Below the pieces are notes generated by a model. That model was not told the origin of the DNA. It saw only the letters and a list, made by a program, of their open reading frames with translations, and made no database searches. The position numbers were made by a program, and so were the translations under genes. From IMG/VR virus record IMGVR_UViG_3300021426_000094, positions 1-64,000 of that record: a DNA stretch of 64,000 nucleotides; one strand, given 5' to 3'. Below, piece after piece: positions 1,185 to 45,002 of this stretch; positions within the stretch are counted from its first letter, which is position 1; each line of letters begins with the position of its first letter. This stretch comes from a virus.

Positions 1185-1206
1185 TATCTTGTGTAATCAA
1201 ACCGCA

Positions 1207-2105: not shown

Positions 2106-2125
2106 GTTAGTTACCTCCTATTTAC

Positions 2126-2692: not shown

Positions 2693-2729
2693 AATTATTT
2701 ACTCCTTTTATTCCATAAAATTAATTTTA

Positions 2730-3833: not shown

Positions 3834-3860
3834 ATCGCTTTATCCTCCTTTCTTAGTCTA

Positions 3861-4328: not shown

Positions 4329-4363
4329 AGCTTTAAATCTCCTTTCTATAAATTTAATTTAAA

Positions 4364-6028: not shown

Positions 6029-6039
6029 AACACACCCCC

Positions 6040-6228
6040 TTACAGACATACCGTTCTTGAGAAGGTGCATTTATCTACAGGGACAGTACTGAACTCCCCA
6101 TTTTCAAAACGACCTATATTAACAAATACAAACTGGCTTCCCTCTTTCTCCATTTCAGGATAACCAGCTTGTCTAAATAACTCAGCCACCTCTTCATCAG
6201 AGGTTTTAATAAACGGCATTTTTTCCAT
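6040..6228 (-). CDS. Small hypothetical protein
   Basis: 62-aa ORF between the portal and the protease/scaffold gene. Confidence 0.3.
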   Translation of the reverse strand: MEKMPFIKTSDEEVAELFRQAGYPEMEKEGSQFVFVNIGRFENGEFSTVPVDKCTFSRTVCL

Positions 6229-6243
6229 TTTTGAAACCTCCTT

Positions 6244-7836: not shown

Positions 7837-7846
7837 ATGCACCTCC

Positions 7847-9625: not shown

Positions 9626-10722
9626 TATTCATCATCCGATTCAAATTCTTGAGCCATTTTATTTCCGAAAATTTCGTCAAAAATAGCTTCTGTATCATCG
9701 CCCTCTTCATATTCAGGACGTGTCACAGTAAATTTGCCAATAAATCTTTCATATATAGAAGAAAAAGCATTTTTTAAATTAAGCATTTTAGCCAAGTGTC
9801 CTTTAAAGAACACATCAATTAACAAACCAATCCTATCCACATCAGCCCATTCACCCTCTGGTTCAGGAATTGGTTTTTCCATCTCCCAAGCTTTAATCAA
9901 TTCACCAAAACTTTTTTGATCAGTCATAGCATCAGTAGAATTCTGTGTGGGTTTAATTCCTAAACTTGTCATAATATCCTGACAAGATTTAATAGCATCT
10001 TTAGGATCTGACCCCTCTTTAGCTAATTGTCTGGCTCTCATATCTTGTATGCACAACTGTTCAAACAAAACCTCTTGAGCCTTAGCTTCGGCAGGATATC
10101 TGGACACCCAGTCTTCATAAGCACTTTCAAGTTGATATAGTTCTTCAGCAGAATAAGCGCCAAATCTTTTACGACCACGTTTAATTATCTCTTGGTCTTC
10201 ATCGACTATATCAATCCTATCTGGTTGCTTAGTAACAAGCTTTTCACCCCATTCAGAGTTCTCCCATGTTTTATCTTTATATGCTGGGAAACTATTTATC
10301 TGAGTCATATATCTTTGGAATGGCATCATTTTTGCTTTACCAGAATCATTAGATTCTTCATTGTTATATGCATTAACACAACTGATATATAAACTTTCAA
10401 TAAAAGGTCTATCCATTTTCCGTAAAACTCTTTGGACAGACAATTTAGTCTCTTTAGGCTGATCCGTGGGCTTCTCTATATTCTCTGCATCTCTAAAGAC
10501 ACACTCTTTACAATATGGATAAAACCCATGTATTGTATTTCTATCTGCATAAAAGTTTTCTCTCTTTGCAGATTTTAATCGTCCACAAGAAGGACACACC
10601 AAATCATCACATTTCGTGATTCTTGTATAGCGTTCTGCAAGAGCATTATATTCGTTTCGCAAATCGCCCACTCTCATTTTTTTTACAGCTTCTTGGCTCT
10701 TAACCTCACGAAGATAAGCCAT
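9625..10722 (-). CDS. Zn-ribbon protein, possible small terminase or DNA-binding partner
   Basis: 365 aa. A CPSCG...CKEC zinc-ribbon is present. Its stop overlaps the terL start. Confidence 0.3.
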   Translation of the reverse strand: MAYLREVKSQEAVKKMRVGDLRNEYNALAERYTRITKCDDLVCPSCGRLKSAKRENFYADRNTIHGFYPYCKECVFRDAENIEKPTDQPKETKLSVQRVLRKMDRPFIESLYISCVNAYNNEESNDSGKAKMMPFQRYMTQINSFPAYKDKTWENSEWGEKLVTKQPDRIDIVDEDQEIIKRGRKRFGAYSAEELYQLESAYEDWVSRYPAEAKAQEVLFEQLCIQDMRARQLAKEGSDPKDAIKSCQDIMTSLGIKPTQNSTDAMTDQKSFGELIKAWEMEKPIPEPEGEWADVDRIGLLIDVFFKGHLAKMLNLKNAFSSIYERFIGKFTVTRPEYEEGDDTEAIFDEIFGNKMAQEFESDDE

Positions 10723-10774
10723 GCAATCACCTTCCTTTTTTATCTGTTTGATTCATTAAAAGTTACATACGAAA

Positions 10775-10851
10775 TAACGGGAGGGGGATTTGAACCCCCG
10801 AATCTCTAGCCCATGAAGCTAGTGAGTTAAACCGAACTTCTCCATCCCGCG
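10775..10851 (-). tRNA. tRNA-Met(CAT) type. It could be elongator Met, initiator-like, or a lysidine Ile2-type tRNA.
   Basis: The minus-strand read gives a cloverleaf with a GGGGG/TTCAAAT/CCCCC T-arm. The anticodon stem is CTAGC/GCTAG with loop TTCATGG, so the anticodon is CAT. The acceptor stem is GCGGGA/TCCCGT with a C1-U72 mismatch. No CCA is encoded. Confidence 0.75.
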
Positions 10852-10861
10852 ATATAATAAA

Positions 10862-10890
10862 GAAGAGACACGTTCACACGCATCTCTTCC
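10862..10890 (-). terminator. Terminator-like hairpin after the metallophosphatase gene
   Basis: A 7-bp stem (GAAGAGA/TCTCTTC) with a 14-nt loop is followed on the minus strand by TTTATTATAT. Confidence 0.3.
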
Positions 10891-10893
10891 TAT

Positions 10894-12117
10894 TTATAAT
10901 ATAAATTTGTATGATTCATTATGACCATAAATATGATGAAAACCAAAAATCTTTACAGCAGGTTTACTACCTTTAAAAATACTATCTGCATAAGGATCAC
11001 ATCCCACAAAACTAGGACACACTAAAACCTCAGTATCATGACAGCATCCTTCAGAACCACTGATTTCTTTACTGGTATGCGTATGCCCAATAATAAGGTA
11101 ATCAACCATCTCATCCTGTTTAACAGACAACATACTTAACGCATTCTCAAAACTCTTAATCTGATGACCATGCATTGCAATTACATTGAATCCAGTCACA
11201 TCAATTTTAGTAAACCATTCCCCCTCTTTAGGGGTATTAACTGTAATCCGCTTATTTGGTACACACAAGTCTTCAATATAATGCCCGATAATATATTCCA
11301 CGTCTTCATCCATCAACTCATTAGGTCTTGTACCAAGCACTCTAAGTTGAGAATGATTAGAAGAGCCTACATGATAATATTTAATATAAGCATATTTAGA
11401 TAATTCTGTTAAGAATGCAGCCACAGTCTTAGATACTTCAACAACAGCAACCACCATAGAAGAATCATTAATCTTTAAATCATTGGCATGAATAAGACCT
11501 TGAACAAAATCACCCAGACCAAGCACTGTCAGTTCTTTAACCTTATGAGAACGAATAAAGTTCACGATATCCACAACCAACAGATCAAATCTATCCTTCA
11601 TAATATCCAATGAATATTCATTAGTTAAAGATGTAAACTTTGCACCTGCATGGATATCTGCAAGACACAAAACGTATGTCTCTTCACTGTTATCATTAAC
11701 TTGAACAGCCTCAAACTCTGGAACAGGAATAGTCTGAGCCAAACTATGAACTTGTTCAAAGAATAATTCCCTACGAGCCTGTTCTCTATCAATCCTGTTG
11801 CGCTCAACATTTAACGTCTGTATTTTAATTCTTTCACGTCTAAGTTCCGCAAGTTGCTTCTGAATGTTAGGATCATATTCAGCATCTGAAATCATAGTAC
11901 TAAATACATTATCATAATACCTTTTAGCAGTTGATACCTGACGTCTATAAGTATCGCTATTTTTCCATTGGCTTTCATCTGTATATAACTGAGCATTTAC
12001 TGTATCAGCCACGTCTTTCCATGAATCAATCAGCCCGTCACCAATATAATGCCCAATTCTCCAAATATATTGTTCTTCTGATTCAGTAGGTAATTTATTT
12101 AATAATTGTTTATCCAT
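10894..12117 (-). CDS. Calcineurin-like metallophosphoesterase (Mre11/SbcD-like)
   Basis: Phosphoesterase motifs are present: ADIHAG, LGDFV, MHGHQ and IIGHTHT. Confidence 0.6.
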   Translation of the reverse strand: MDKQLLNKLPTESEEQYIWRIGHYIGDGLIDSWKDVADTVNAQLYTDESQWKNSDTYRRQVSTAKRYYDNVFSTMISDAEYDPNIQKQLAELRRERIKIQTLNVERNRIDREQARRELFFEQVHSLAQTIPVPEFEAVQVNDNSEETYVLCLADIHAGAKFTSLTNEYSLDIMKDRFDLLVVDIVNFIRSHKVKELTVLGLGDFVQGLIHANDLKINDSSMVVAVVEVSKTVAAFLTELSKYAYIKYYHVGSSNHSQLRVLGTRPNELMDEDVEYIIGHYIEDLCVPNKRITVNTPKEGEWFTKIDVTGFNVIAMHGHQIKSFENALSMLSVKQDEMVDYLIIGHTHTSKEISGSEGCCHDTEVLVCPSFVGCDPYADSIFKGSKPAVKIFGFHHIYGHNESYKFIL

Positions 12118-16604: not shown

Positions 16605-18182
16605 TTACCATTTATCAATTCCAGCAAGGACATTGATTTCTTTTTGCACTACATCATACCAAGTTCCAAGAGTTTTACGTCTTTGTTCGCCAGAACCATA
16701 CTTATGATCAATGGCTTTATCACCAGTATATAAGCCCTTAGCAACCTTATATACCCAATTAACTTTATTCTGTACTGCAACTGCGTCATATCCTGCTTTA
16801 GTTAATTTAGTAAAACGCTCCGATCCATCAACAGCACCATTACCATATTTACCACGATATACGTCTGCAATGATTTCAGGCGTTACTTCTTTCGTATTCT
16901 TCACAATAGCCTTATGAACTACAGGTTTAATATTCTTTTCTACGATTTTTTCAGAAACAACCTGAGATTTAGAACCAGTCTTTTCAACCTCATATTCAAT
17001 CTCAAAAGCTACCTCATCATTCACACATTCAAGAATACCATTCCAAGGATAAGAGTAATACATTCTCAAATGACTTTCACCACGTCCGTATTGCTCATCG
17101 TAGTCACCAATCTGTTTCTGATCTCCAACTTTACCGCCATTTGCTGTGCCTTTTTCATTAATACTAAATTCCATTAACACATCGGGTTCAGCCGACAAAC
17201 ACATAGCTGTATGACATTTCTCATTAAGATAAACATCACCCATTTGAGCAATAAAAGACATAGGACGCCATTTAAAGTTTCCAGTGCTTGTCATACACTG
17301 ACGCATATTGCCAGTATAAGTAGCTCCACCACAACTAATACCAGCAGCCTCAAATGCAGATATAACAGCAGAAGAGCAATCCCTATCTCCAGATTTTATA
17401 GTGTATTTGTGACCATAAATATCTATAGTCTCAGTACCTGTGCCAAATCTTTTGTCCATATCCTGCGTATAGCCGTGATTCTTATGAGTACAAAGATGTC
17501 TCATAATTAAAGCAGCCACTTCTTTCTTATACACACGATATGTTTTCTTTTCCTTAACAGGCTGTGTGTTTGATGTGTCTTTCTTCCTATTATTAAACGG
17601 GACATACCATATAGATTCATCTACATTTCCAGAAATGCCGGGAATATGTGCCCTTGAGGTAAACTGCCAACCATCCATAGGAAACGATGGTTTATATTTA
17701 GCTTCTTGCTTGCCAGAATTTGTGCCATAAGCAGGAATCCATCTACGACATTCAAATCCTTTTAACGGATCACGCCAAAAAGCCTGTCCTGCATAAACTC
17801 CAGAATCATTACCAAATTCTTTAAGCCATGCAGTAGCTGCCTTTTTGTTTAAATGTCTTAAATTCCATTCTTCTAAATCGAGCCAATGTGATACAACATT
17901 CTTTCCTTCTGTCAATCGTTTTTCATGAGCAATTTCACTCTTGATTTGATTCTCATTACCAGCATAACTATAAAGGTATGTTCCATAGGGAATGCCATAT
18001 TTCTCACATTGTTCCACATTATATTTATAATATTTATCATCTTGAGATTTAATATCATCTCCATATCCAGTACGAAGAATAGCACCGTCAATATAATCTT
18101 TAGCACGCTTCCAGTCAATCTTACCTTGATGCTCAGATGCATCAATAATTCTTTCGCTCATAAGCATCCCCTTTCTATACAA
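16605..18182 (-). CDS. Endolysin with an N-terminal GH25 muramidase, a central Cys/His peptidase-like domain and a C-terminal putative binding domain
   Basis: IDASEHQGKIDW matches the GH25 signature (IDVSxxQG.IDW). DCSSAV ... CHTAMC suggests an NlpC/P60-like module. Total length is 525 aa. Confidence 0.75.
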   Translation of the reverse strand: MYRKGMLMSERIIDASEHQGKIDWKRAKDYIDGAILRTGYGDDIKSQDDKYYKYNVEQCEKYGIPYGTYLYSYAGNENQIKSEIAHEKRLTEGKNVVSHWLDLEEWNLRHLNKKAATAWLKEFGNDSGVYAGQAFWRDPLKGFECRRWIPAYGTNSGKQEAKYKPSFPMDGWQFTSRAHIPGISGNVDESIWYVPFNNRKKDTSNTQPVKEKKTYRVYKKEVAALIMRHLCTHKNHGYTQDMDKRFGTGTETIDIYGHKYTIKSGDRDCSSAVISAFEAAGISCGGATYTGNMRQCMTSTGNFKWRPMSFIAQMGDVYLNEKCHTAMCLSAEPDVLMEFSINEKGTANGGKVGDQKQIGDYDEQYGRGESHLRMYYSYPWNGILECVNDEVAFEIEYEVEKTGSKSQVVSEKIVEKNIKPVVHKAIVKNTKEVTPEIIADVYRGKYGNGAVDGSERFTKLTKAGYDAVAVQNKVNWVYKVAKGLYTGDKAIDHKYGSGEQRRKTLGTWYDVVQKEINVLAGIDKW

Positions 18183-21403: not shown

Positions 21404-22621
21404 TTATAGCAATTTAAGCTTATTAATTTGAGTTTGTAGACCAAGCACAAACAACTGAAGTTCGTTTTCAGTCACGTCCCTATCCATACTAATACGAATA
21501 GTGCTATTAATCTCTTTTTCTGTTAACCCAATTTCCTGCAATACCTTACTAGGTTCTTTAACCCCCGCATGACAAGCACTACCAGCAGACACTTGGCAAC
21601 CTTCAAAAATATCTAGATTAGTTATCAGCTGTTCATTATCAATACCATTAAAAGTAACATTGACAATATTCGCCAATCCATTATAAGGGCTATTAATCTT
21701 TACATCATATCTTGTCATTAGGAAATCCAACAAAAGACTTCTACACCTTTTCAAATTCCTATTGTCTTCATCAATAGTTTTATATGCTCGATCCATAGCC
21801 CGACCCATCATAATAATAGAGGGCGCATCTTCAGTGCCTGACCGCATTCCTTTTTCCTGACCACCACCATGCAGAAGAGGATTAATTTCAATACCATTTC
21901 GCACATACAAGAAACCGACCCCATGAGGCGCACCAAACTTATGACCAGACACCGACATCATATCAATACCCATATCTTGTACATCAATCTTCACATGCGT
22001 AAAAGCTTGAACTGCATCTACATGCAACACTCCATCATACTTGTGTACAATTTTACTAATTGCCTTAATATCATTAATTGATCCAAGTTCATTATTTGCC
22101 ATCATAATTGACACAAGAATTGGATATTGTTTGACATTTGGCGTATAACGAATACGTTCTTCCAAAGATTCTAAATCAACCGTACCGCTATCATAACATT
22201 TCACTATATTCACACTATTGGCAATCCCCATTTCATAAAGCCATACAGCGGGATTAATAACAGAAGGATGCTCAAGACTTGAAACAAAAATTGATGGTGT
22301 TAAACGATAATAATCAAACATCTTAGAAGATCCACGAGGAGCATTCCAATGATGATACTTCTCACAACACCACCCCTTAATCGCTAGATTATTGGCTTCT
22401 GTACCTCCAGATGTAAAGATAATCTTATCACTTTCTTGACCATTAATACACTTTAAAATATCCTGTCGTACATCCTCAATAGCCTGTCGTGTCTTCATCG
22501 ATCCCTGAGAGATAGAAGAGGGATTCCACCAATATTCCCTACATAAGTAACCATACTCCTGTATTATTTCTTCATCAGGCTGCATCGTAGCAGCATTATC
22601 AAAATAAAGTGACGCTGACAT
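21404..22621 (-). CDS. Cysteine desulfurase (NifS/IscS-like, class-V PLP enzyme)
   Basis: SVSGHKFGAPHGVGFLYV resembles IscS SGHK (PLP-binding Lys). VSAGSACHAG resembles the IscS SSGSAC catalytic Cys loop. Confidence 0.8.
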   Translation of the reverse strand: MSASLYFDNAATMQPDEEIIQEYGYLCREYWWNPSSISQGSMKTRQAIEDVRQDILKCINGQESDKIIFTSGGTEANNLAIKGWCCEKYHHWNAPRGSSKMFDYYRLTPSIFVSSLEHPSVINPAVWLYEMGIANSVNIVKCYDSGTVDLESLEERIRYTPNVKQYPILVSIMMANNELGSINDIKAISKIVHKYDGVLHVDAVQAFTHVKIDVQDMGIDMMSVSGHKFGAPHGVGFLYVRNGIEINPLLHGGGQEKGMRSGTEDAPSIIMMGRAMDRAYKTIDEDNRNLKRCRSLLLDFLMTRYDVKINSPYNGLANIVNVTFNGIDNEQLITNLDIFEGCQVSAGSACHAGVKEPSKVLQEIGLTEKEINSTIRISMDRDVTENELQLFVLGLQTQINKLKLL

Positions 22622-23225
22622 TCAATCACCATGCCTTTCTGCATATCGCTTCCGAATCTTCTGAACTGTTGGTGTCAAATCTACAACAAATTCTTCCCAA
22701 TTATCCTTATTAGGAGACCACCGCCTATACCTACGTGTAAGTGGAAGAGTATGAGGAAACTGTTCTTTGCTAATCTGCTCCCAATATGCATCAGGGTCTT
22801 TATAATTCATCTTTTTAATGCATTCTTTACATACTGGCATAATCCAACCGTCAGTGCTGGGCACATCAAGTTCACCACATACTTCACAGATATAACCACT
22901 TATGGCAGCATAATTCTCAATAATCTCATGGACTCTGCACCTATCAGGACATCCGTTATCATACCAGCGCATTTCACCGAATTTGCTTTTTATCTGTGCA
23001 ATACTATATTCATCTGCGTAATCAAACTTCTCTAACTCTTCTTGAATTTCCTCACAAAGCAATTCCCCGAACGCTTTACGCCAACCTTCAGATAATGCAT
23101 CCAATTCAGTCCATGTGTAGTCATAATCCTTAACCTTTTCTCCACTCCATTGATAATGCGGATAAAGCCAAGGATACTTTTTAATCAATGCTTTATTGTA
23201 CTCAACATTATCCATTTCTTTTTCT
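22622..23225 (-). CDS. Cys-rich hypothetical protein
   Basis: The start was reset to MDNVEY (GGGAGA RBS). Multiple CxxC pairs are present (NGCPDRC, ICEVCGE, PVCKEC). Confidence 0.4.
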
Positions 23226-23399
23226 CCCATACAACCCAAGCACCCACGCCCTAAACATTCCTTCTTTAACATTGTTGCACCAACCAATTCTATGATCATA
23301 ATAATACAGCCCGACCTGTTCACCCTTACGTCTTACCTCGTAATCTCCAGACTGCACACAAAAATCATAGCCATCCAGTTTCGTTTCAAACCAAGTCAT
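23208..23399 (-). CDS. Small hypothetical protein
   Basis: 63 aa. The start overlaps the upstream stop (ATGA). Confidence 0.3.
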   Translation of the reverse strand: MTWFETKLDGYDFCVQSGDYEVRRKGEQVGLYYYDHRIGWCNNVKEGMFRAWVLGLYGRKRNG

Positions 23400-23743
23400 T
23401 CCTCAACCTCCACAGTGTATAATGGTTTTTTAAAATCATGTACAGACGTAAAATGCATATCTATATCTAAATATCGATTTGCTACAATTCTATATATCTT
23501 GTCTCCATGATGATTATAAGCACAATAATCATCTTGATTAACTTCTATCTGTATATCAGGCTCAGCAATAACTTTAGAAGTAAATACCATACCATTTATT
23601 TTTAGTTTCAAATAAAACGGCTTATTTTCACTAACATCAATGGCGCTCATATCAAAATACGAAGTTCCACAATATGGACAAGTGTTTAATTCTGTTTTGT
23701 ATGGTGCCCCGCAATTAGGACAATTCCTCTGATTCATTAACAA
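23396..23743 (-). CDS. Zn-ribbon protein
   Basis: An N-terminal CPNCG...CPYCG motif is present. Length is 115 aa. Confidence 0.4.
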   Translation of the reverse strand: MLMNQRNCPNCGAPYKTELNTCPYCGTSYFDMSAIDVSENKPFYLKLKINGMVFTSKVIAEPDIQIEVNQDDYCAYNHHGDKIYRIVANRYLDIDMHFTSVHDFKKPLYTVEVEE

Positions 23744-24635
23744 CTTCCTCTCTTACAATTTGAAACATATCATCAATGCTCTTATTACCAATAGAATAAT
23801 GAATTTCAGAAAGACTACTTCTTGCGAATGTTCCGCTTACCAAATCAATGTAAAAAGTAACAGTCCCATCTTCACCTGCATAATACAGTTCCCACTCTTC
23901 ATCTGTAAGCTTATCTCTCATATGAAGCTGTTCAAGCGCCAAATTATCAAAGGACACGATTTCAAATTTGTCAGCAAGCTCTACAATCCCAGACTCAAGC
24001 CATGCAATATTATCCAGAATCATTTGGTTATTATCCTTATAATAAGGAAGACCACGACCCTTCTGCTTATATCCCAGAATAAGAATCTTCAAATCATGAT
24101 CACCCAGAGCATTAATATCCTCAGGATTAATAACCCCAGCAATTACATGGATGATAGCATTTGGAAATTCTTTAATGGCTTCAATGAATCCTTCCTGTGT
24201 AGGATCAACCAATGAAATACCAATCCCTTTAATCAGTCCCATCTTCATAAGAAAACGCACAAACTGCCGACCGTAATCGCTCATAAAATGCTTCTGATTA
24301 ATGGTGGCATTCACAAATACATTCTGTGCTTTCATAGTATACAGGAATTCCATCAAATCAGGTGGAGTAGGAAACTGAAGATTGATAGCAATCTCCGTAT
24401 AAGGATGCATGGTATGCAAGAATCTCCAACTGGTCAAATCACCATGCTTACCAGTAGGAGAGCAACCTGCATAACAAAACTCACACCCATTATCACAGCA
24501 CTGTGAGATTTGAATATCACAGGATTCACTGTACTGAAAGCGGAAATCATCATCTTCTGTTACATGAATCTTTGTTCCATCATCGTAAATGGTAGTAATT
24601 GTATTACCATTCTGATATTGTGCTAACTCTTTCAT
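23715..24635 (-). CDS. Radical SAM enzyme
   Basis: C-DNG-C-EF-C-Y is the CxxxCxxC motif followed by an aromatic residue, about 45 aa from the N-terminus. Length is 306 aa. Confidence 0.7.
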   Translation of the reverse strand: MKELAQYQNGNTITTIYDDGTKIHVTEDDDFRFQYSESCDIQISQCCDNGCEFCYAGCSPTGKHGDLTSWRFLHTMHPYTEIAINLQFPTPPDLMEFLYTMKAQNVFVNATINQKHFMSDYGRQFVRFLMKMGLIKGIGISLVDPTQEGFIEAIKEFPNAIIHVIAGVINPEDINALGDHDLKILILGYKQKGRGLPYYKDNNQMILDNIAWLESGIVELADKFEIVSFDNLALEQLHMRDKLTDEEWELYYAGEDGTVTFYIDLVSGTFARSSLSEIHYSIGNKSIDDMFQIVREEVVNESEELS

Positions 24636-25669
24636 TTTTTATACTCCTTAACCACTGCCCAGTTTGCCTCGGCAAGAAACTTATTAATCCTATCATAATC
24701 AGGATTTGCGGGAAGACTTGTATGTTCTTTCCAATATTGTAACTTATTTTCTAAATCATCTACAATATCATAGAATTCTGCGACCGGATGATCTTCATCA
24801 TCAAGATACTTACCATTCCTAATATCCATAAGAAAGTCATGCTCTTTCTCACGATAAGTAATAATCTCGCCTTTTTCAAGAATATCAAAACACATCAGAT
24901 AAAGCCGAACCAGATGCATCATGTGCTTACCTAGCTTACCACGTTCAATTGCTTTACGATTCCTAGCCCCGATTTTTGCATACTCTTTGACAATTGCAAG
25001 CATCTCTGACCACATTGATTTATAATCTCGAAGGGGATAATGCTTTAAATCAACATCCATAAAAATCTCTGTATCATAATCAGGATTTACTGCTTCATCA
25101 AGATATAGCTTAATTGCGTCTTCTGGATGTTCAAAAAACTTTGCGGGGAATGTATATTTAGCATTTTCAATGCTGCGCAAAATAAACTCCTCACGCTTAG
25201 ATTGCTCCATAGTTCTAGCAGCCCGATTCTCTAAACGTCTAAGCTGGCTTCCCGCATAACCTCCAAATGAATGGATGGCACACTTAGAAAGAAACATATC
25301 TCTATTATCAATGAGCGCCTGACCGATATCTGTTACATAGAAATACTGCCAAGGCTCAAGGCCAAGAATCTCAATTGTATTAGGATTACAATTAGAAAGA
25401 AGGTTCACAATCTTTTCAAGAGAATAAATAGTTGTATCAGTTTCCTCGTTAACCACCTGCTCAAATCCTTTACGGGTCAAAATGTCCTGAGCATTATGAG
25501 TAGCTATACCACGAATATCAATATCACTGTCTTCATTGTTAGTACCATAGGCATAACTACCACCAAGTCCTAAAAGAACAATATTTCCCACAAGAGGCTC
25601 TTTGCCAAGAAAACTATAACGTTCATCAAAAGCCAACATATTACCAATATCATCTCTGGTTTTAATCAT
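24632..25669 (-). CDS. Pol-beta superfamily nucleotidyltransferase with a ~200-aa helical C-terminal domain
   Basis: GLGGSYAYGTNNEDSDIDIRGI matches the GS-x9-13-DxD signature of KNTase/MNT-like nucleotidyltransferases. Length is 345 aa. Confidence 0.6.
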   Translation of the reverse strand: MIKTRDDIGNMLAFDERYSFLGKEPLVGNIVLLGLGGSYAYGTNNEDSDIDIRGIATHNAQDILTRKGFEQVVNEETDTTIYSLEKIVNLLSNCNPNTIEILGLEPWQYFYVTDIGQALIDNRDMFLSKCAIHSFGGYAGSQLRRLENRAARTMEQSKREEFILRSIENAKYTFPAKFFEHPEDAIKLYLDEAVNPDYDTEIFMDVDLKHYPLRDYKSMWSEMLAIVKEYAKIGARNRKAIERGKLGKHMMHLVRLYLMCFDILEKGEIITYREKEHDFLMDIRNGKYLDDEDHPVAEFYDIVDDLENKLQYWKEHTSLPANPDYDRINKFLAEANWAVVKEYKK

Positions 25670-27544: not shown

Positions 27545-28507
27545 TTAATCACCTTCCTCTGTTGTAAGATTACGTGTGTCTACAATAGGAGTGGAGCTAC
27601 CCTGAATCTGAGGAACAGTACCATTCCACTTTTCAATTTTCTCTTTCTCAATAAGTTCTGGAGTCAACGAACCAGCAACTTTCTTGTTGGCCTCTGCCTC
27701 AGCTTCAGCAGCGATTCTCTTAGCTTCTGCATCACCCTCAGCTTTAATCTTTGCCTTTTCTGCATTAATCTTAGCTGTCTCTTTATCTTTCTCAGCATTA
27801 ATAAGCGCAACTTCCTTTTCCTTTTCAGCATCTACAGAAGCTGTCTGCTTATTAATCTTGGCGACTTCCAAATCCTGCTGAGCCTGAATCTTCTTCTGAA
27901 TTGCCTTATCTGTTTCCTCGTCTACATTGACATCAATCAGTGACGCACTCTCGATGATAATCCCATAAGGCTCAAATTTCTCTTTCAGATATTCAGTAAG
28001 AGCAATATTAACCGCACCACGCTGTTCACCGATGATCTCTGTCATATAATATCTGGGCGTGACTTCCTTAGTCCAAGACATTACATTTGGTCTAATAAAT
28101 GTACGGAGTACTTCCTTACCAGAACGACCCTTGAACCTTGTAAAGATTTCAGCGACCCGTTCAGGATCATACCTGTAAGTAAATGTCTCATCAACCCTCA
28201 GACCTTTACCATCCTTCGAAGGAGCCTCAAAGCTATCATCGCCCTCAGAATCCCCATCGTCTCCAGCAGTAAGATAAGACTGCTCAATACCAATAGAATA
28301 CAGTGTAATCTGTTTAGTAGGTGAAACAACATGCCATCCCTGAGACAAAACCTCGTCATCAATACCACCATTCATCTTATACACGACACCTACATAGCCC
28401 GCAGGAATCCTCTCTGTACATTTGAAACAACAAATAACCACAAGGGCAATTACAATAGCCGAAAAAACGCCACCAACAATACCTTTCATCTCTTTACTCC
28501 TTTTCAT
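27545..28507 (-). CDS. SPFH/band-7 (prohibitin/HflK/C-like) membrane protein
   Basis: An N-terminal TM helix is followed by a PHB-like core and a coiled coil with KINAEK repeats. Confidence 0.7.
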   Translation of the reverse strand: MKRSKEMKGIVGGVFSAIVIALVVICCFKCTERIPAGYVGVVYKMNGGIDDEVLSQGWHVVSPTKQITLYSIGIEQSYLTAGDDGDSEGDDSFEAPSKDGKGLRVDETFTYRYDPERVAEIFTRFKGRSGKEVLRTFIRPNVMSWTKEVTPRYYMTEIIGEQRGAVNIALTEYLKEKFEPYGIIIESASLIDVNVDEETDKAIQKKIQAQQDLEVAKINKQTASVDAEKEKEVALINAEKDKETAKINAEKAKIKAEGDAEAKRIAAEAEAEANKKVAGSLTPELIEKEKIEKWNGTVPQIQGSSTPIVDTRNLTTEEGD

Positions 28508-29569: not shown

Positions 29570-29797
29570 TTATTTAATAATAATGTGTTTCTCTGGATGA
29601 TCTATAATGTCCTGAATCTTGTCTTCCTGACGAATGCGCTTACAATCATAAATCGTCAGCCATGTAATTGTTTCTTTGAATTTACTCTTTGCTTTACGCC
29701 GATTTGGTGCTAAAACGTAGTAAACTGGTTTATTCTCATTGTTTGGTCGATAATCAGCTGTGATAGCGAAGAGGCATTGGTCTTCATATTTAGCCAT
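29570..29797 (-). CDS. Hypothetical protein
   Basis: 75-aa ORF. Confidence 0.35.
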   Translation of the reverse strand: MAKYEDQCLFAITADYRPNNENKPVYYVLAPNRRKAKSKFKETITWLTIYDCKRIRQEDKIQDIIDHPEKHIIIK

Positions 29798-30412
29798 TTA
29801 AATGTCCTCGTTAATAATGTTCATCTGACAAGATTTCATAGTCATTAATGCTGCTCTATGAAGTTCTGGAGTAGTACCAGCGCAACACGATGCATCAATA
29901 GTGATTTCAGCTTCAGGGAATGCTTGACGAATTGCGAATGCGTTAGAGACCACACAGATATCTGTACAAACACCTATGAATTCAAATTCAAGGTCTTCTC
30001 CCTTATAATCAAGAGGAACATACATATCCAAAAATGAATTCAAAAGATTAACCACCGTTCTCCAAACATTCCCCTCAATTGCGAAATTTTCTTTAACAAT
30101 AGTATTATATCCTTCTTTTCCTTTAATCCATGGATGACGTCCAGTCGCATGAACAGTATCTAAAATATCATTCACGATATTCCACCCTCTATCACTTTGG
30201 CAATGTGGAATTGGTAAATAACGTCCTTCTCTTGTTTGCGGATACTCATCTTCGTCATGCATATCCATCGTAAAAATTAAACGGTCATAATCTTTAACCT
30301 TAATCTTCTCAACAACCTTTGGCACAATCACCTGTGCTTCTGGAGTACCAAGGATGCCAGTGATAAAATCGTTTTGCATATCAATTACCATTAGAATTTT
30401 CGTTTTGTTCAT
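29798..30412 (-). CDS. Isochorismatase-fold cysteine hydrolase (nicotinamidase PncA-like)
   Basis: VIDMQNDF is the family N-terminal motif. GVCTDICV carries the catalytic Cys. Length is 204 aa. Confidence 0.7.
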   Translation of the reverse strand: MNKTKILMVIDMQNDFITGILGTPEAQVIVPKVVEKIKVKDYDRLIFTMDMHDEDEYPQTREGRYLPIPHCQSDRGWNIVNDILDTVHATGRHPWIKGKEGYNTIVKENFAIEGNVWRTVVNLLNSFLDMYVPLDYKGEDLEFEFIGVCTDICVVSNAFAIRQAFPEAEITIDASCCAGTTPELHRAALMTMKSCQMNIINEDI

Positions 30413-30429
30413 TTTTAATTATACCTCAT

Positions 30430-31521
30430 TTAACTTGCATTTGCCCATTGCCATCCAAAACCACCGCATTTTCTCCTTATACCATCACATACCTTCCTAA
30501 TATTTCTTTGTGCGGCTTCAGCACTTTGTCCGGTTTCTTCTGCTACATTGCGCCCAGCATCTGCTATAGAATTAAATGTGCAAATATAACTACCGTTTAT
30601 ATCATATTTATTAACAGGACGCAACATACCAGAATAGTCATCTTTTGATAACGTTGGTGGTTTTTTATCTTTAGTCCACAGAAAGCCACAAGCACTTTGA
30701 ACTTCACCTCTTAAACATTGATATATACGATGTCTTGCGCCTGTATCATTAGTTTCTGTACCTAAATACAGTCTATGCACGGCTTCTCTAACATCATCAT
30801 AAACTCCAATTAATTGTTTGGTATGTACATCCCAACAATACACAATTCCATCATATGGCATCATTTGTTTAATACTAGCCTTATACTTTTTTCGTATTAT
30901 ATTATTTATCCCTTTTATTTCTGATTCAGGGATATCATTTCCATGTGTATCTTTATGATACCGAAATATATATTTACTAGCTCTTAATTGCCGACCTTTA
31001 ACTACTTTTAATATATTAGTTTTTTTAACGCCAGTTATATCTTGTGCTTCATTATATGTCATTGCCGTACCAAGGTATTTACCATTTAAATCAAAGTAAT
31101 CTATTGGAGTTCTTTTAGCTAAATTATGTTTATTATTTCTTAATTTTTCTTTATGATCTTCTGATAGAGGAACACCAACATGTGAATAACCACCATCATC
31201 TCGATTATATCCATAAGAAGGATGTTGCCATCTGTTTAAATTAGTTTTATATTTTTTAATATAATAGCGTTCTCGTTTACAGGCTTGTTCAAAAGAAAGT
31301 TTTTCTTCCAAAATAATATGTTTAAAATTATCCCAACCATATTTTTTTATTGCCCTATAAAATACAGTTTGAGTATGATATCCCTCTCCATTTGCCCATC
31401 TAACTTCAGGCTTTAATGACGTTATACCAATATACCTCTTATCATTGGGGGCTACATGCATATAAACACAATACAACACATCCAAATAATTTTTCCATGT
31501 CTTTTTGGTATCTTCTAACAT
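30430..31521 (-). CDS. GIY-YIG homing endonuclease with C-terminal DNA-binding repeats
   Basis: The N-terminus (YCVYMHV...KRYIGIT) matches the GIY-(x10)-YIG motif. The C-terminal half repeats the FDLNGKYLGTAMTYNEAQDITG-type motif. Confidence 0.7.
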   Translation of the reverse strand: MLEDTKKTWKNYLDVLYCVYMHVAPNDKRYIGITSLKPEVRWANGEGYHTQTVFYRAIKKYGWDNFKHIILEEKLSFEQACKRERYYIKKYKTNLNRWQHPSYGYNRDDGGYSHVGVPLSEDHKEKLRNNKHNLAKRTPIDYFDLNGKYLGTAMTYNEAQDITGVKKTNILKVVKGRQLRASKYIFRYHKDTHGNDIPESEIKGINNIIRKKYKASIKQMMPYDGIVYCWDVHTKQLIGVYDDVREAVHRLYLGTETNDTGARHRIYQCLRGEVQSACGFLWTKDKKPPTLSKDDYSGMLRPVNKYDINGSYICTFNSIADAGRNVAEETGQSAEAAQRNIRKVCDGIRRKCGGFGWQWANAS

Positions 31522-32744: not shown

Positions 32745-32958
32745 TCTCCATAATCTTAGCAGCTACATTAAGTCTCAGCCCCACAAAGGGTGGAAGAGTA
32801 CTACCAGAACTATTCTGTGAAAACGTCATAGGATTTGCACGCCATCTTTTAATCATCTCTTCTTTACCCAATTCAATACGGTACTGTTTATTAAATAGCT
32901 TCTTAAAAAAATACTTAATCTTATTAATCAATCTCTTCCTATATACTTCTACTTTCAT
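32713..32958 (-). CDS. Small basic protein
   Basis: 81 aa. Overlaps its neighbours and the start is uncertain. Confidence 0.25.
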   Translation of the reverse strand: MKVEVYRKRLINKIKYFFKKLFNKQYRIELGKEEMIKRWRANPMTFSQNSSGSTLPPFVGLRLNVAAKIMEIGDWRNRYGR

Positions 32959-33457
32959 TTCTTCCCTTCCACCATTTCTTATAATATTCCAATGTCAGGA
33001 ACATTATCAATGTGTTTATACTTACAAATTTCTTATTAAGTTTGTTCTCAATCCAAGGATGAAGCGGTTCAACCAAATCCTGCTCTTCAAAAAATCCAAT
33101 AATTTCTTTCCCTAGTAGCCATGCCAACATAATCTCTTGGCATGTACCTACAGATGTTTTTGCTTTGTTTAGATTCACCACAAAATAATTGCAATTAATA
33201 ATTCCACAAATATCATATTCATGAGCCAACTGCTGAACTTCATCACTTTCGTCCTCAGCATTAAAAACAGTTGGATCAAAGAATTGATAATGACCCATAA
33301 AATGTTTCTCTAGAACTTCTCGCCATTCTGTCTGTTCTTTTTGTGACAATCCTGTCATAGCACCAGACAAAAAAATAGTAGGGCAATCTGCTTCTACCTT
33401 ATATTTCTGAACTAAAACTTCTAATCTATCATTCCTCATTCGCTTCCTCTCTCTCAA
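32939..33457 (-). CDS. Nucleoside 2-deoxyribosyltransferase-like / dNMP N-hydrolase-like protein
   Basis: The N-terminus (IFLSGAMTG...EW) and a later conserved Glu (GTCQEIMLAW) resemble the NDT/Rcl fold. Length is 172 aa. Confidence 0.45.
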   Translation of the reverse strand: MRERKRMRNDRLEVLVQKYKVEADCPTIFLSGAMTGLSQKEQTEWREVLEKHFMGHYQFFDPTVFNAEDESDEVQQLAHEYDICGIINCNYFVVNLNKAKTSVGTCQEIMLAWLLGKEIIGFFEEQDLVEPLHPWIENKLNKKFVSINTLIMFLTLEYYKKWWKGRNESRSI

Positions 33458-42788: not shown

Positions 42789-43472
42789 TTACATCCAATA
42801 ATTAATAGCCTCTTGCTGTTCCATAAAAAAGTGAATGCCGGGCGCACATTCATGCCAGCGATTTTCATCAAAGTCTGGAACCGTCACAATTTTTCGTGGT
42901 TCGTAAGTAAATCCATAATCATAACTCGAAAATGCTTTACCTACATAATTACCATCTAATGTACGAATATCCAGAACTTGTGCTTTACTACATCTACATT
43001 TACGAGAAAAACCGCTACTACGTCTTGCTTCTGTCGGTATCAATAACTTAATAATACAAGGTCGCATTTCATATGTGCCATCAATGGTGCCATCAATGTG
43101 TAACTGAGGATACAATCCCATTTTCCATCCTATAAAAGCACCTTTTGTTGGGCATACAGTAGGTACATAAGGTTCTGATCCAATAAAATGACAGTTGTTT
43201 ACATATGCATCAAAAATTCCTATATAAGTACAATTACGAAAAATGCAATTTCTAAAAATTAAAGATGTATTATTTTGATTAAAAACGCAATACTCAAAAA
43301 TACAATATCTAAAAATAATGGAACAATTTCTATCAAGAAGAGCGCATATATCTGTTGTAAATGAGCCAAAATTGAAACCTATAAAATGGCATTTATCATA
43401 TAACGTATCAATTGAAGTATTCTTGAATGCGTGTGAATAAGAAGGAAATATCGTTTTGTTTTTAATAATCAT
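42789..43472 (-). CDS. Pentapeptide-repeat-like (CxFxxCxF) protein, cassette copy 1
   Basis: Repeats such as NCSIIFRYCIFEYCVFNQNNTSLIFRNCIFRNCTY are present. A conserved GIHFFMEQQEAINYW C-terminus is shared with its paralog 44400..45002. Confidence 0.5.
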   Translation of the reverse strand: MIIKNKTIFPSYSHAFKNTSIDTLYDKCHFIGFNFGSFTTDICALLDRNCSIIFRYCIFEYCVFNQNNTSLIFRNCIFRNCTYIGIFDAYVNNCHFIGSEPYVPTVCPTKGAFIGWKMGLYPQLHIDGTIDGTYEMRPCIIKLLIPTEARRSSGFSRKCRCSKAQVLDIRTLDGNYVGKAFSSYDYGFTYEPRKIVTVPDFDENRWHECAPGIHFFMEQQEAINYWM

Positions 43473-43962: not shown

Positions 43963-44403
43963 TTAATTTAGATGCTCCTTCATAAAGTAATCAATGTCTG
44001 CTTGCTCTCGTGCTAGTCCTCGCTGAAGATTGGCTATTAGCTCTGTCTGACGTTCAAGCTGCTCCTGCTGAATCTGACGTTTCTCAATATTTTTATGAAA
44101 ATGTCGATACCGCATTACATCAATAAACGTCTTGAAGTCTACAGCGCTATCACTATATCTTATGTCATAATCATTAAGTATAAAATCTTCTGGCATTACA
44201 TGATATAAAGCAATGAACTGGCGGTAGGTGATTTTCGGAGTGGTGGAGCAGACTATATTCCACCAACTTGTATAAAACCATAATAGCACTAGATCAATGA
44301 CCCAAATTATAATCATCATTAAAAGTGCAAACCCATTACCCGTACAAAGGGTAAGAACTGCGGGTGCTATAAAAAAGAATACGAATATAATTATAGCTAT
44401 CAT
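43963..44403 (-). CDS. Membrane protein, cassette copy 2
   Basis: The start was reset to MIAIIIF (AAGGAG RBS). It is a paralog of 42328..42777 (YRQFIALYHVMPEDF versus FKEFYSLYSIMPENF). Confidence 0.45.
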   Translation of the reverse strand: MIAIIIFVFFFIAPAVLTLCTGNGFALLMMIIIWVIDLVLLWFYTSWWNIVCSTTPKITYRQFIALYHVMPEDFILNDYDIRYSDSAVDFKTFIDVMRYRHFHKNIEKRQIQQEQLERQTELIANLQRGLAREQADIDYFMKEHLN

Positions 44404-45002
44404 AGATTCTCCTTGTAATAATTCACTGCTTCTTGCCGCTCCATAAAGAAATGAATACCATGTGAACATGCGTAGCTCCTGTCATCATCAAATTGATCAG
44501 GATACACCCATTCGTTAATTTTATAATAAAAATCAGGCGACCACCGAGAACAAGTAACCTCATTCTCTGCTGGTGTCCCATCCATATTTTGAATCTCCAA
44601 TACAAATGCCTTATCACATCGGCATTTGCGCTCTCCATAAGGCGAAACTCGCCTTGCATCAGCTGGGATCAGCAGCTTAATTAACTGCCCATTACAATCT
44701 ACTTTCCAACCGATAAATGCACCCTCAACTGGACAGACATAGGGAATATAAGGTTGATTACCAAGAAAGTCACAGTCTATTACATGGGCGTTAAATGTAT
44801 TCTTAAATGTGCAATTTATAAAAATACAGTTCATAAAAAATATAGGAAACGATTCATCGAATGTACAATATTCAAATACACAAGATGAAAAAGTAAATGG
44901 CAGATACCATTTCCTAAAATGAACTCCAATAAAATGACAATGCGTATAAGTATCAGGTATATAAGGATAAGTACCCGGAAAATATTTCTTATCTGTTATC
45001 AT
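44400..45002 (-). CDS. Pentapeptide-repeat-like protein, cassette copy 2
   Basis: A paralog of 42789..43472. It shares LIKLLIP(T/A)(E/D)ARR...RKCRC...GIHFFME(Q/R)QEA(I/V)NY. Confidence 0.5.
   Translation of the reverse strand: MITDKKYFPGTYPYIPDTYTHCHFIGVHFRKWYLPFTFSSCVFEYCTFDESFPIFFMNCIFINCTFKNTFNAHVIDCDFLGNQPYIPYVCPVEGAFIGWKVDCNGQLIKLLIPADARRVSPYGERKCRCDKAFVLEIQNMDGTPAENEVTCSRWSPDFYYKINEWVYPDQFDDDRSYACSHGIHFFMERQEAVNYYKENL

What the first reader, a model, noticed from the sequence alone, without database searches (positions are those of the whole stretch)
29798..30412. Isochorismatase-fold (nicotinamidase-like) cysteine hydrolase in a phage accessory block
The VIDMQNDF N-terminal motif and the GVCTDICV nucleophile loop place this 204-aa protein in the PncA / isochorismatase / YcaC hydrolase family. 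If it is a nicotinamidase, the phage could manipulate NAD salvage during infection. Thoeris, SIR2 and DSR-type defences deplete NAD and release nicotinamide. Phage NAD-reconstitution pathways are known, but they use other enzymes. The gene sits next to a GIY-YIG homing endonuclease and a Sipho_Gp157 gene, which is a typical anti-defence or moron neighbourhood.
Basis: partly seen in the sequence, partly recalled or inferred. Interest (0 to 1): 0.55.

Follow-up and report, generated by a model that had tools for sequence, protein, structure and literature searches.

The report
Phage-encoded nicotinamidase (PncA-type) gene
A gut or rumen phage related to Bacillus phage SPbeta carries a conserved gene for an enzyme that very probably turns nicotinamide into nicotinic acid; this would help rebuild the cofactor NAD during infection, and it is a plausible but untested way to blunt bacterial defences that destroy NAD.

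Summary
The ORF is real: 29798-30412 on the minus strand, 204 aa, with a GAGG ribosome-binding site. It is under purifying selection (dN/dS 0.08-0.48). It belongs to the isochorismatase superfamily (Pfam E=7e-12). Within it, it sits in the nicotinamidase branch:
- The Asp11-Lys107-Cys153 triad and the PncA metal ligands Asp50/His52/His70 are conserved in 42 homologues.
- The ten best solved-structure matches to the family profile are all nicotinamidases.
- The AlphaFold model has pLDDT 92.

The subfamily has an invariant SCCAGTTPE motif. It is common in Clostridia, where it sometimes lies beside nadE or pncB. It also occurs in at least 530 IMG/VR viral stretches.

In 58 of 79 viral loci it directly precedes homologues of the phage NAD-reconstitution pair Adps+Namat (NARP1), often with NadE and a macro domain. 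All 64 of those Namat homologues have lost the amide-binding Asp215. In contrast, 80 canonical Namat loci keep Asp/Glu and have no PncA or NadE nearby. This suggests a nicotinate-based NARP1 variant.

The window's own phage clade has none of these partners in about 82 kb examined, so this PncA stands alone. The adjacent GIY-YIG gene is a polymorphic insertion.

Verdict: a new member of a known kind. Enzyme activity and any counter-defence role are untested.

The parts
29798..30412 (-). pncA-like gene: 204-aa metal-dependent cysteine amidohydrolase, a predicted nicotinamidase
   Evidence: ORF. Pfam PF00857 E=7e-12. The family profile hits PDB nicotinamidases 1im5 (9e-20), 2h0r, 5zn8, 6kua, 3s2s and 3o90. 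AF2 model pLDDT 92.2; Foldseek top hit is B. subtilis PncA 5zn8. dN/dS 0.08-0.48.
30380..30382 (-). codon of Asp11, the catalytic triad acid in the VIDMQNDF motif
   Evidence: Conserved in at least 90% of 42 homologues. Aligns with Asp10 of P. horikoshii PncA. Codon read.
30092..30094 (-). codon of Lys107, the catalytic triad lysine
   Evidence: Invariant. Aligns with the Lys of the KxxYSAF motif (chain residue 103) of B. subtilis PncA 5zn8. Lies at the end of predicted strand 101-107.
29954..29956 (-). codon of Cys153, the nucleophile in the GVCTDICV loop
   Evidence: Invariant. Aligns with the Cys of GLCTDICV in 5zn8 and of GVATEYCV in 1im5.
30203..30265 (-). segment encoding the metal-site ligands Asp50, His52 and His70 (D-x-H ... 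H-C)
   Evidence: Asp50 is invariant; His52 and His70 are conserved in at least 90%. They align with Asp52/His54/His71 of P. horikoshii PncA, counted from the alignment.
29876..29896 (-). segment encoding S175-C176-C177-A178-G179-T180-T181, the start of the SCCAGTTPExH subfamily motif
   Evidence: C176, C177, A178, G179, T181, P182, E183 and H185 are invariant in 42 homologues. The motif was used as the search pattern and retrieved 530 viral and 463 bacterial relatives. Its role is unknown.
30424..30427 (-). Shine-Dalgarno GAGG of the pncA-like gene
   Evidence: Read directly from the sequence; 11 nt upstream of the ATG at 30410-30412.
30430..31521 (-). free-standing GIY-YIG/NUMOD homing endonuclease inserted immediately upstream; not functionally part of the enzyme
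   Evidence: Pfam GIY-YIG 1.7e-6, plus NUMOD1 and I-HmuI NUMOD-like. In L009 and L010 the flanks join directly, so the insertion is missing there; the L002-L005 gene lists and blastp show no copy either. A different HEG (45% identity) occurs in L008 and L011. GC 32.1% against 36.6% for the surroundings.
29570..29797 (-). 75-aa ORF starting directly after the pncA stop codon (TAAATG); function unknown
   Evidence: ORF. No significant Pfam or PHROG hit. Present only in part of the clade: L008, L009, L010.

Best explanation
The gene encodes a functional, metal-dependent nicotinamidase (EC 3.5.1.19-type).

Chemistry, inferred by homology to solved PncA enzymes: a divalent metal held by Asp50/His52/His70 positions the pyridine nitrogen of nicotinamide. 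Cys153, assisted by Asp11 and Lys107, attacks the carboxamide. Ammonia leaves, and the thioester is hydrolysed to nicotinate.

Role in infection, inferred: the enzyme converts nicotinamide into nicotinate. Nicotinamide is the pyridine released whenever NAD+ is cleaved by SIR2/TIR-type defence NADases or by ADP-ribosyl transferases. Nicotinate is the form that the Preiss-Handler route (PncB, NadD, NadE) of Clostridia-type hosts can use. The phage would thereby speed NAD+ resynthesis for its own replication.

In this SPbeta-like phage the gene stands alone, so it must feed host enzymes.

In most related phages the same subfamily heads a pncA-adps-namat(-macro)-nadE cluster. There the Namat homologue lacks the amide-recognising Asp215. 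This points to a nicotinate-based version of NARP1: Nam -> NA; ADPR -> ADPR-PP; NA + ADPR-PP -> deamido-NAD; NadE -> NAD+.

Shown here: the gene, fold, catalytic and metal residues, conservation, and genomic associations. Inferred: substrate, direction of flux, counter-defence benefit.
For: Gene and constraint:
- ORF with an SD sequence.
- dN/dS 0.08-0.48 across the clade.

Family:
- Pfam PF00857.
- D11, K107, C153, D50, H52 and H70 are invariant or conserved in at least 90% of 42 homologues down to 46% identity.
- A profile search of the PDB ranks ten nicotinamidases first, 1im5 at 9e-20 through 3pl1 at 1e-9, before any other enzyme.
- AF2 model pLDDT 92, pTM 0.90. Foldseek top hit is B. subtilis PncA.

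Context in bacteria: the only recurrent neighbours are NadE (at +1 in 8 loci) and a bona fide PncB with NAPRTase_N + NAPRTase domains (6 loci).

Context in viruses:
- 58 of 79 loci have an Adps-like and a Namat-like gene directly downstream; 40 have NadE; 23 have a macro domain.
- After dereplication at 90%, 21 of 34 viral clusters have Adps and/or Namat.
- The L001 partner matches SPbetaL1 Namat (PDB 9w5x) at 2.4e-103, against about 1e-40 for human NAMPT (identity of 9w5x from PMC12774641).
- The Prs-like partner is 34-39% identical (E about 1e-48) to Adps genes next to canonical Namat, against 9e-14 for B. subtilis Prs.

Specificity switch:
- All 64 PncA-linked Namat homologues have Ala or Ser at Asp215 and Ser at Ala242.
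- All 80 canonical Namat loci have Asp or Glu at 215 and Ala at 242; none has PncA or NadE nearby.
- Asp215 hydrogen-bonds nicotinamide in Namat (PMC12774641). The equivalent Asp219 defines the substrate specificity of NAMPT (PMC7096376, citing Khan et al.).
Against: - No member of this SCCAG subfamily has been characterised. Identity to solved nicotinamidases is only about 20-24%.
- The curated E. coli-type PncA equivalog model is not met: 15 bits against a cut-off of 174.
- Foldseek also ranks non-nicotinamidase family members (3hb7, 3eef, maleamate amidase) almost as high. The fold alone therefore does not fix the substrate.
- I could not inspect model coordinates, so the triad and metal geometry rest on sequence alignment.
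- The window phage has no Adps, Namat, NadE, macro or PncB in 64 kb plus about 18 kb of flanks. The NARP1 association therefore does not apply directly to it.
- Hosts of this kind usually carry their own PncA of the same subfamily, so the added value of a phage copy is unproven.
- A host-dependent four-step route may be too slow to outrun a defence NADase.
Confidence: 0.6

Rival explanations
1. It is a nicotinamidase, but its benefit is removal of nicotinamide rather than NAD+ resynthesis. Nicotinamide is a product inhibitor of sirtuins, ADP-ribosyl transferases and other NAD-consuming enzymes. Clearing it, as yeast Pnc1 does for Sir2 (my own knowledge), would keep a phage or host NAD-consuming enzyme active.
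For: The enzyme assignment rests on the same evidence. The gene stands alone in this phage with no NAD-building partner.
Against: - No NAD-consuming enzyme (ART, sirtuin, macro domain) was detected among the 38 window ORFs scanned with Pfam, and an HMM scan of all six frames found no macro domain.
- Removing nicotinamide would also relieve product inhibition of the defence NADases, which would harm the phage.
- In relatives and in bacteria the gene is tied to NAD-synthesis genes (NadE, PncB, Adps/Namat), not to NAD consumers.
Confidence: 0.1
2. It is an isochorismatase-family amidohydrolase acting on a different amide and has nothing to do with NAD. Candidates are a nucleobase or nucleoside amide linked to the conserved NDT-like gene at 32939-33457, a carbamoyl compound, or a maleamate-like compound.
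For: - Foldseek gives near-equal scores to carbamoylsarcosine amidase-like 3eef, 3hb7 and maleamate amidases.
- The subfamily has an invariant SCCAG motif and clade-specific insertions not seen in characterised PncAs.
- A nucleoside 2-deoxyribosyltransferase-like gene is co-conserved with it in the window clade.
- PHROG 19305 is labelled 'unknown function'.
Against: - The Asp/His/His metal site, which to my knowledge distinguishes nicotinamidases from the other branches, is conserved.
- The sequence profile ranks ten nicotinamidases first.
- The recurrent neighbours in both bacteria and viruses are all NAD-pathway genes.
- The Asp215 loss in linked Namat homologues fits nicotinate production.
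Confidence: 0.12
3. It is a passenger or relic: a leftover of a NARP1-type cluster that this clade lost, or a recently acquired host gene. It is carried without a selected role in infection.
For: The partner genes present in most related phages are missing here. Viral and bacterial sequences are interleaved in the tree, which implies frequent transfer.
Against: - The window clade is a distinct, long-branched viral lineage spanning 61-100% identity. All catalytic residues are intact, and dN/dS is 0.08-0.48.
- GC equals that of the surrounding phage genes.
- The exact protein recurs on independent metagenome contigs with the same gene order.
Confidence: 0.05

Closest known systems
Bacterial and archaeal nicotinamidase/pyrazinamidase PncA (P. 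horikoshii PH999 1IM5; B. subtilis PncA 5ZN8; S. pneumoniae 3O90; M. tuberculosis 3PL1; yeast Pnc1 2H0R)
   Same: Isochorismatase fold, Asp-Lys-Cys triad, Asp/His/His metal site, G-x-x-T-D/E-x-C-V nucleophile loop, and size (about 180-215 aa). These are the best profile matches in the PDB.
   Different: - Only about 16-24% identical.
- Invariant SCCAGTTPExH C-terminal motif.
- Two clade-specific insertions (about residues 85-105 and 113-140).
- Phage-encoded.
- No biochemical data exist for the subfamily.
- The E. coli-type equivalog cut-off is not met.
NARP1 (Adps + Namat), the phage NAD+ reconstitution pathway (bioRxiv 10.1101/2024.02.11.579819; PMC12774641)
   Same: Same biological theme, and a physical link: in 58 of 79 related viral loci this PncA subfamily sits directly upstream of Adps and Namat homologues. 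The window phage is SPbeta-like, like SPbetaL1, whose NARP1 was characterised.
   Different: The window has no Adps or Namat. Published NARP1 uses nicotinamide directly and needs no deamidase. The PncA-linked Namat homologues lack Asp215 and usually come with NadE. I did not find this variant described.
NARP2 (NAMPT + NMNAT, KVP40 type) and NARP3 (PnuC + NadR; PMC13464706)
   Same: Phage-encoded salvage enzymes that rebuild NAD+ from breakdown products or precursors to escape NAD-depleting immunity.
   Different: They use amidated routes (nicotinamide or nicotinamide riboside). They encode the committing enzymes themselves, and neither includes a nicotinamidase.
Preiss-Handler gene clusters (pncB-nadD-nadE) in gut jumbo phages (PMC11662467); annotation-level PncA in phage G (PMC12484599) and phAss-1 (PMC10607447; OQ749652, 37% identity)
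   Same: Phage-borne genes of the deamidated NAD route. Phage pncA is already mentioned or annotated there.
   Different: Those reports are purely annotation-level. Here the gene is alone in a phage that I infer to be about 115-160 kb, from related contigs of 118.5 and 157 kb; it is not a jumbo phage. None of those papers, as far as I read them, links PncA to Adps/Namat.

Membership tests
Isochorismatase-like hydrolase superfamily (PF00857) | Significant match to the family model above its curated cut-off | tested here: met
   E=7e-12, 46.2 bits against a cut-off of 27.
Isochorismatase-like hydrolase superfamily (PF00857) | Three-layer alpha/beta fold with a parallel sheet | tested here: met
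   AF2 model pLDDT 92.2, pTM 0.90, alternating strand/helix order. 87 PDB matches with E<=1e-3; the top 50 listed all belong to this superfamily.
Nicotinamidase / PncA | Catalytic triad Asp-Lys-Cys | tested here: met
   D11, K107 and C153 are invariant or nearly so in 42 homologues. They align with the corresponding motif residues of 1im5 and 5zn8.
Nicotinamidase / PncA | Divalent-metal site: Asp-x-His plus a downstream His (Asp52/His54/His71 in PH999) | tested here: met
   D50 is invariant; H52 and H70 are conserved in at least 90%. They align column for column with D52/H54/H71 of 1im5.
Nicotinamidase / PncA | Closer to characterised nicotinamidases than to other branches of the superfamily | tested here: met
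   The profile-HMM search of the PDB returns nicotinamidases at ranks 1-10. Foldseek is less discriminating.
Nicotinamidase / PncA | cis-peptide / oxyanion-hole geometry in the nucleophile loop | not testable with these tools
   The loop sequence GVCTDICV is compatible, but bond geometry cannot be read from the outputs available.
Nicotinamidase / PncA | Hydrolysis of nicotinamide to nicotinate | not testable with these tools
   Requires an enzyme assay.
Nicotinamidase / PncA | Genomic association with Preiss-Handler or NAD-synthesis genes | tested here: met
   This holds for the subfamily only: nadE at +1 in 8 bacterial loci, pncB in 6, and NARP1-like plus nadE in most viral loci. It does not hold for the window itself.
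E. coli-type PncA equivalog (NCBIfam NF008623) | Score above the curated equivalog cut-off | tested here: not met
   15 bits against a cut-off of 174. The protein is not an orthologue of the enterobacterial enzyme.
NARP1 (phage NAD reconstitution pathway 1) | Adps (PRPS-like) and Namat (NAMPT-like) genes present | tested here: not met
   No tblastn or HMM hit in the window or its flanks L246 and L332; best E>0.2. Both genes are present next to homologues in other phages.
Phage Preiss-Handler cluster (pncB-nadD-nadE) | pncB and nadE encoded by the phage | tested here: not met
   No hit in about 82 kb examined. nadD was not searched with a dedicated model.
GIY-YIG homing endonuclease (neighbouring gene 30430-31521) | GIY-YIG catalytic domain plus NUMOD DNA-binding modules; presence/absence polymorphism at the site | tested here: met
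   Pfam. In L009 and L010 the flanks are joined without the insertion; the L002-L005 gene lists show no copy.

The most novel reading that the evidence does not exclude
This PncA subfamily marks a deamidated branch of phage NAD+ reconstitution that I did not find described. In many gut and rumen Clostridia phages, PncA, Adps, a nicotinate-specific Namat (Asp215 to Ala/Ser) and NadE would rebuild NAD+ from ADPR plus nicotinamide via nicotinate and deamido-NAD. In the window's SPbeta-like clade the pathway would be reduced to PncA alone. Plugged into the host's PncB/NadD/NadE, that single enzyme would suffice to blunt NAD-depleting defences: a one-gene, host-dependent NARP.
Probability: 0.3. Interest if true: 0.65.

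Novelty: new member of a known kind. Interest (0 to 1): 0.45.

Why it matters
NAD+ depletion is one of the commonest bacterial anti-phage strategies. Three phage NAD-rebuilding pathways (NARP1-3) have been described, and all start from amidated precursors.

A phage nicotinamidase would add the deamidated (Preiss-Handler) route to the conflict. That is the route that dominant gut Clostridia rely on. The comparative data give a directly testable prediction: Namat homologues with Ala/Ser215 use nicotinate and need PncA upstream and NadE downstream.

The subfamily is abundant in gut and rumen viromes (at least 530 IMG/VR stretches). It could therefore also affect the community's nicotinamide/nicotinate balance, which matters for host-microbiome NAD metabolism.

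For this particular window the gene itself is an ordinary, well-conserved enzyme. Its interest lies in the context it opens up.

Tried and rejected
- Megablast of 27-34 kb against 50,697 GenBank phage records found nothing. The protein search found only 7 records at 30-44% identity, one of them annotated 'nicotinamidase'.
- The NCBIfam equivalog for E. coli PncA is far below its cut-off.
- I looked for NAD partners in the window by tblastn and by HMMs built from the partner clusters, run with all filters off. Nothing turned up.
- I tried to follow the rest of the phage genome. The 157-kb IMG/VR contig is 97.6% identical around pncA. But for a methylase gene near the window's right end, the best IMG/VR contigs are other phages only 72-91% identical. 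A full walk was therefore not possible. I could add only about 10 kb at the right end (integrase, MrpR) and about 8 kb at the left end (tail genes).
- I considered that the HEG and the gene form a mobile unit, and rejected it. The HEG is absent from close relatives that keep pncA.
- I considered a pseudogene or relic, and rejected it on conservation and dN/dS.
- The BFVD fold search found only giant-virus nicotinamidase-like proteins, which was not informative for phages.
- I could not check the 3D geometry of the triad and metal site because model coordinates are not exposed.
- I did not resolve the role of the SCCAG double-cysteine motif.

Full report
**Observation.** The translation carries MVIDMQNDF (residues 8-16) and GVCTDICV (147-154). 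I read the key codons in the raw sequence, along with a GAGG ribosome-binding site 11 nt upstream of the ATG. The stop codon abuts the ATG of a 75-aa downstream ORF (TAAATG). Pfam places the protein in the Isochorismatase family (E=7e-12, 46 bits, cut-off 27). The large protein database holds 6829 homologues with E<=1e-3. Within the phage clade, dN/dS is 0.08-0.48, and the gene's GC (36.6%) equals that of its surroundings.

**Which branch of the superfamily.** I aligned 42 homologues down to 46% identity.
- The catalytic triad is invariant or nearly so: Asp11, Lys107, Cys153.
- So is a second set of residues: Asp50, His52, His70.
- In the HMM alignment to P. horikoshii PncA (1IM5), these three fall on Asp52/His54/His71, the metal ligands of that enzyme. 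Asp11 falls on Asp10, and Cys153 on the Cys of the nucleophile loop.
- Lys107 aligns with the Lys of the KxxYSAF motif of B. subtilis PncA.

A profile built from the alignment ranks ten nicotinamidases first in the PDB: 1im5 at 9e-20, then 2h0r, 5zn8/6a8l, 6kua, 3s2s, 3o90, 29iv, 3o94, 3pl1. Only after those comes any other enzyme. The AlphaFold2 model is confident (pLDDT 92.2, pTM 0.90), and its best Foldseek match is B. subtilis PncA. Other family members (3hb7, 3eef, maleamate amidase) score almost as well, so the fold alone does not fix the substrate. The E. coli-type PncA equivalog model is not met (15 against 174 bits). I could not read model coordinates, so the triad and metal geometry rest on alignment.

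**A distinct subfamily.** All homologues share an invariant C-terminal motif, D-A-S-C-C-A-G-T/V-T-P-E-x-H, with two adjacent cysteines (C176, C177). It is absent from characterised PncAs, and its role is unknown. With this motif as the pattern, 463 relatives were confirmed in GTDB species genomes. Nearly all are Clostridia: Lachnospiraceae, Oscillospiraceae, Acutalibacteraceae, Eubacterium, Ruminococcus. PHROGs files the protein under an 'unknown function' family. GenBank phage records hold only seven relatives, one of them annotated nicotinamidase (phAss-1).

**Context of homologues.** I called ORFs in 165 fetched loci and clustered the genes within six positions of the PncA-like gene.

In bacterial loci that lack phage-type genes, only two neighbours recur:
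- NAD synthase NadE, at +1 in 8 loci.
- A bona fide nicotinate phosphoribosyltransferase (NAPRTase_N + NAPRTase), in 6 loci.

This is classical genomic evidence for a Preiss-Handler nicotinamidase.

In viral loci the picture is more striking. Of 79 loci:
- 58 have, directly downstream, a roughly 274-aa PRPP-synthetase-like gene and a roughly 491-aa NAMPT-like gene.
- 40 have NadE.
- 23 have a macro-domain gene.

After dereplication at 90% identity, 21 of 34 viral clusters have Adps and/or Namat. The NAMPT-like partner matches PDB 9w5x/9w5w at 2.4e-103, against about 1e-40 for human NAMPT. Those entries are the SPbetaL1 Namat structures (PMC12774641). The PRPS-like partner is 34-39% identical (E about 1e-48) to the genes sitting upstream of canonical Namat, against 9e-14 for B. 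subtilis Prs. These partners are therefore Adps and Namat, that is, NARP1 (bioRxiv 10.1101/2024.02.11.579819).

**A specificity switch that fits a nicotinamidase.** In Namat, Asp215 hydrogen-bonds nicotinamide (PMC12774641). The equivalent Asp219 defines the substrate specificity of human NAMPT (PMC7096376, citing Khan et al.).
- All 64 PncA-linked Namat homologues have Ala (48) or Ser (16) at this position, and Ser instead of Ala242.
- As a control I fetched the 80 IMG/VR loci closest to SPbetaL1 Namat. All have Asp (70) or Glu (10) at 215 and Ala at 242. Of these, 74 have Adps, and none has a PncA-like gene or NadE within 8 kb.

The PncA-linked set was ascertained through PncA. The residue change and the NadE co-occurrence were not. 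The simplest reading is a nicotinate-based NARP1 variant:
- PncA converts nicotinamide to nicotinate.
- Adps converts ADPR to ADPR-PP.
- The altered Namat joins nicotinate and ADPR-PP into deamido-NAD.
- NadE amidates it to NAD+.

Full-text searches found no paper that links Namat or Adps with PncA or NadE. The published NARP1, NARP2 and NARP3 do not use a nicotinamidase. This is inference from sequence, not biochemistry.

**The window's own situation.** The phage is SPbeta-like:
- Tail genes at and beyond the window's left end belong to the YonB/YonD/YonG/YonJ/YomU families.
- The endolysin is GH25 plus CW_7 repeats, which suggests a Gram-positive host.
- An integrase and an MrpR-type recombinase lie just past the right end.

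In the NJ tree the window's PncA and its relatives (61-100% identity; L002-L011) form a separate, long-branched viral clade. None of them has Adps, Namat, NadE, a macro domain or PncB nearby. HMMs built from those partner families find nothing in the 64-kb window or in about 18 kb of flanking sequence from contigs that carry identical end genes; the best E exceeds 0.2. I could not recover the rest of the genome. The 157-kb IMG/VR contig is 97.6% identical around pncA, but for a methylase gene near the right end of the window the best IMG/VR contigs are other phages, only 72-91% identical in patches.

Here, then, PncA stands alone. It lies in a co-directional block of small early genes between an NDT-like gene and the Gp157/SPFH genes. 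The exact protein and gene order recur on independent metagenome contigs.

The GIY-YIG gene is a polymorphic insertion. In L009 and L010 the pncA gene and the 91-aa upstream gene are directly adjacent. The gene lists of L002-L005 show no HEG. L008 and L011 carry a different HEG (45% identity). Its GC is 32%, against 36.6% for the surroundings.

**Mechanism proposed.** I take the protein to be an active nicotinamidase (about 0.8). I propose that in this phage it feeds nicotinamide released from NAD+ cleavage into the host's PncB-NadD-NadE route. Counter-defence against NAD-depleting systems is the most likely selective benefit (about 0.4-0.5). My overall confidence in the statement is 0.6.

Arguments against:
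- No member of the subfamily has been characterised.
- Similarity to solved PncAs is low.
- Hosts usually have their own copy.
- A lone deamidase may be too slow to matter.
- Removing nicotinamide also relieves product inhibition of NADases.

Rivals:
- Nicotinamide scavenging for another purpose (0.10).
- A different amide substrate (0.12).
- A relic (0.05).

**Novelty and score.** Phage pncA is already mentioned or annotated in phage G, in phAss-1 and in the gut jumbo-phage survey. Phage NAD salvage is also well established. The gene in this window is therefore a new member of a known kind, and I score interest at 0.45. What this follow-up adds, and what I did not find in the literature I could search, concerns the relatives rather than the window:
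- The systematic link between this PncA subfamily and NARP1 genes.
- The matching loss of Asp215 in Namat.
- The recruitment of NadE.

Noticed in passing
L001:6001-10085; also L012-L085 (IMG/VR loci): A conserved cluster, pncA-like / Adps-like / Namat-like (Asp215 to Ala or Ser, Ala242 to Ser) / macro domain / NadE, occurs in many gut and rumen phages. It looks like a nicotinate-based variant of NARP1. 80 canonical Namat loci keep Asp/Glu215 and have no PncA or NadE.
   Followed up: yes
window 30430-31521: The GIY-YIG/NUMOD homing endonuclease is a presence/absence polymorphism exactly between pncA and the 91-aa upstream gene. A different HEG (45% identity) sits near pncA in L008 and L011, so this locus is hit repeatedly.
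   Followed up: partly
window 29876-29896 (residues 175-181): An invariant SCCAGTTPExH motif with two adjacent cysteines defines this PncA subfamily in Clostridia and their phages. It has no counterpart in solved nicotinamidases, and its role (second metal site, redox switch or other) is unknown.
   Followed up: no
window 21404-25669: A run of three genes: a class-V aminotransferase/cysteine-desulfurase-like gene (21404-22621), a 'Fe-S oxidoreductase' PHROG (23715-24635), and an RlaP-like nucleotidyltransferase (24632-25669). RlaP-like and RtcB RNA-ligase genes also recur near pncA in NARP1-bearing relatives. This may be an RNA-repair or modification module.
   Followed up: partly
window 32939-33457: A gene resembling a nucleoside 2-deoxyribosyltransferase (PF05014, just below cut-off; PHROG 355) is co-conserved with pncA in the window clade (also L002-L004, L006, L007, L009-L011); elsewhere there is only a weak 26% match in L058. 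A functional link is possible but untested.
   Followed up: partly
window 27545-28507: A phage-encoded SPFH/Band-7 membrane protein (E=2e-25). Homologues at 55-63% identity also lie near pncA in a dozen NARP1-bearing viral loci.
   Followed up: no
window 42789-43472 and 44400-45002: Two paralogous DUF5758 proteins (E=5e-29 and 5e-34) about 1 kb apart on the minus strand.
   Followed up: no
window 1-12117 and L332:1-20567: The tail and structural genes belong to SPbeta-type families (YonB, YonD, YonG, YonJ, YomU tube), so this is an SPbeta-like siphovirus. The endolysin at 16605-18182 is GH25 + CW_7, which suggests a Gram-positive host.
   Followed up: partly
L246:14981-19694 (4.3-9 kb past the window's right end): A tyrosine integrase and an MrpR-type recombinase plus a YodL-like gene. 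They suggest a temperate or episomal lifestyle.
   Followed up: no
window 62834-63478: A 214-aa ORF matches only the N-terminal part (profile positions 1-117 of 324) of a C5 cytosine DNA methylase. It is very widespread in IMG/VR (97 relatives at 58-98% identity). It may be a split or truncated methylase.
   Followed up: no
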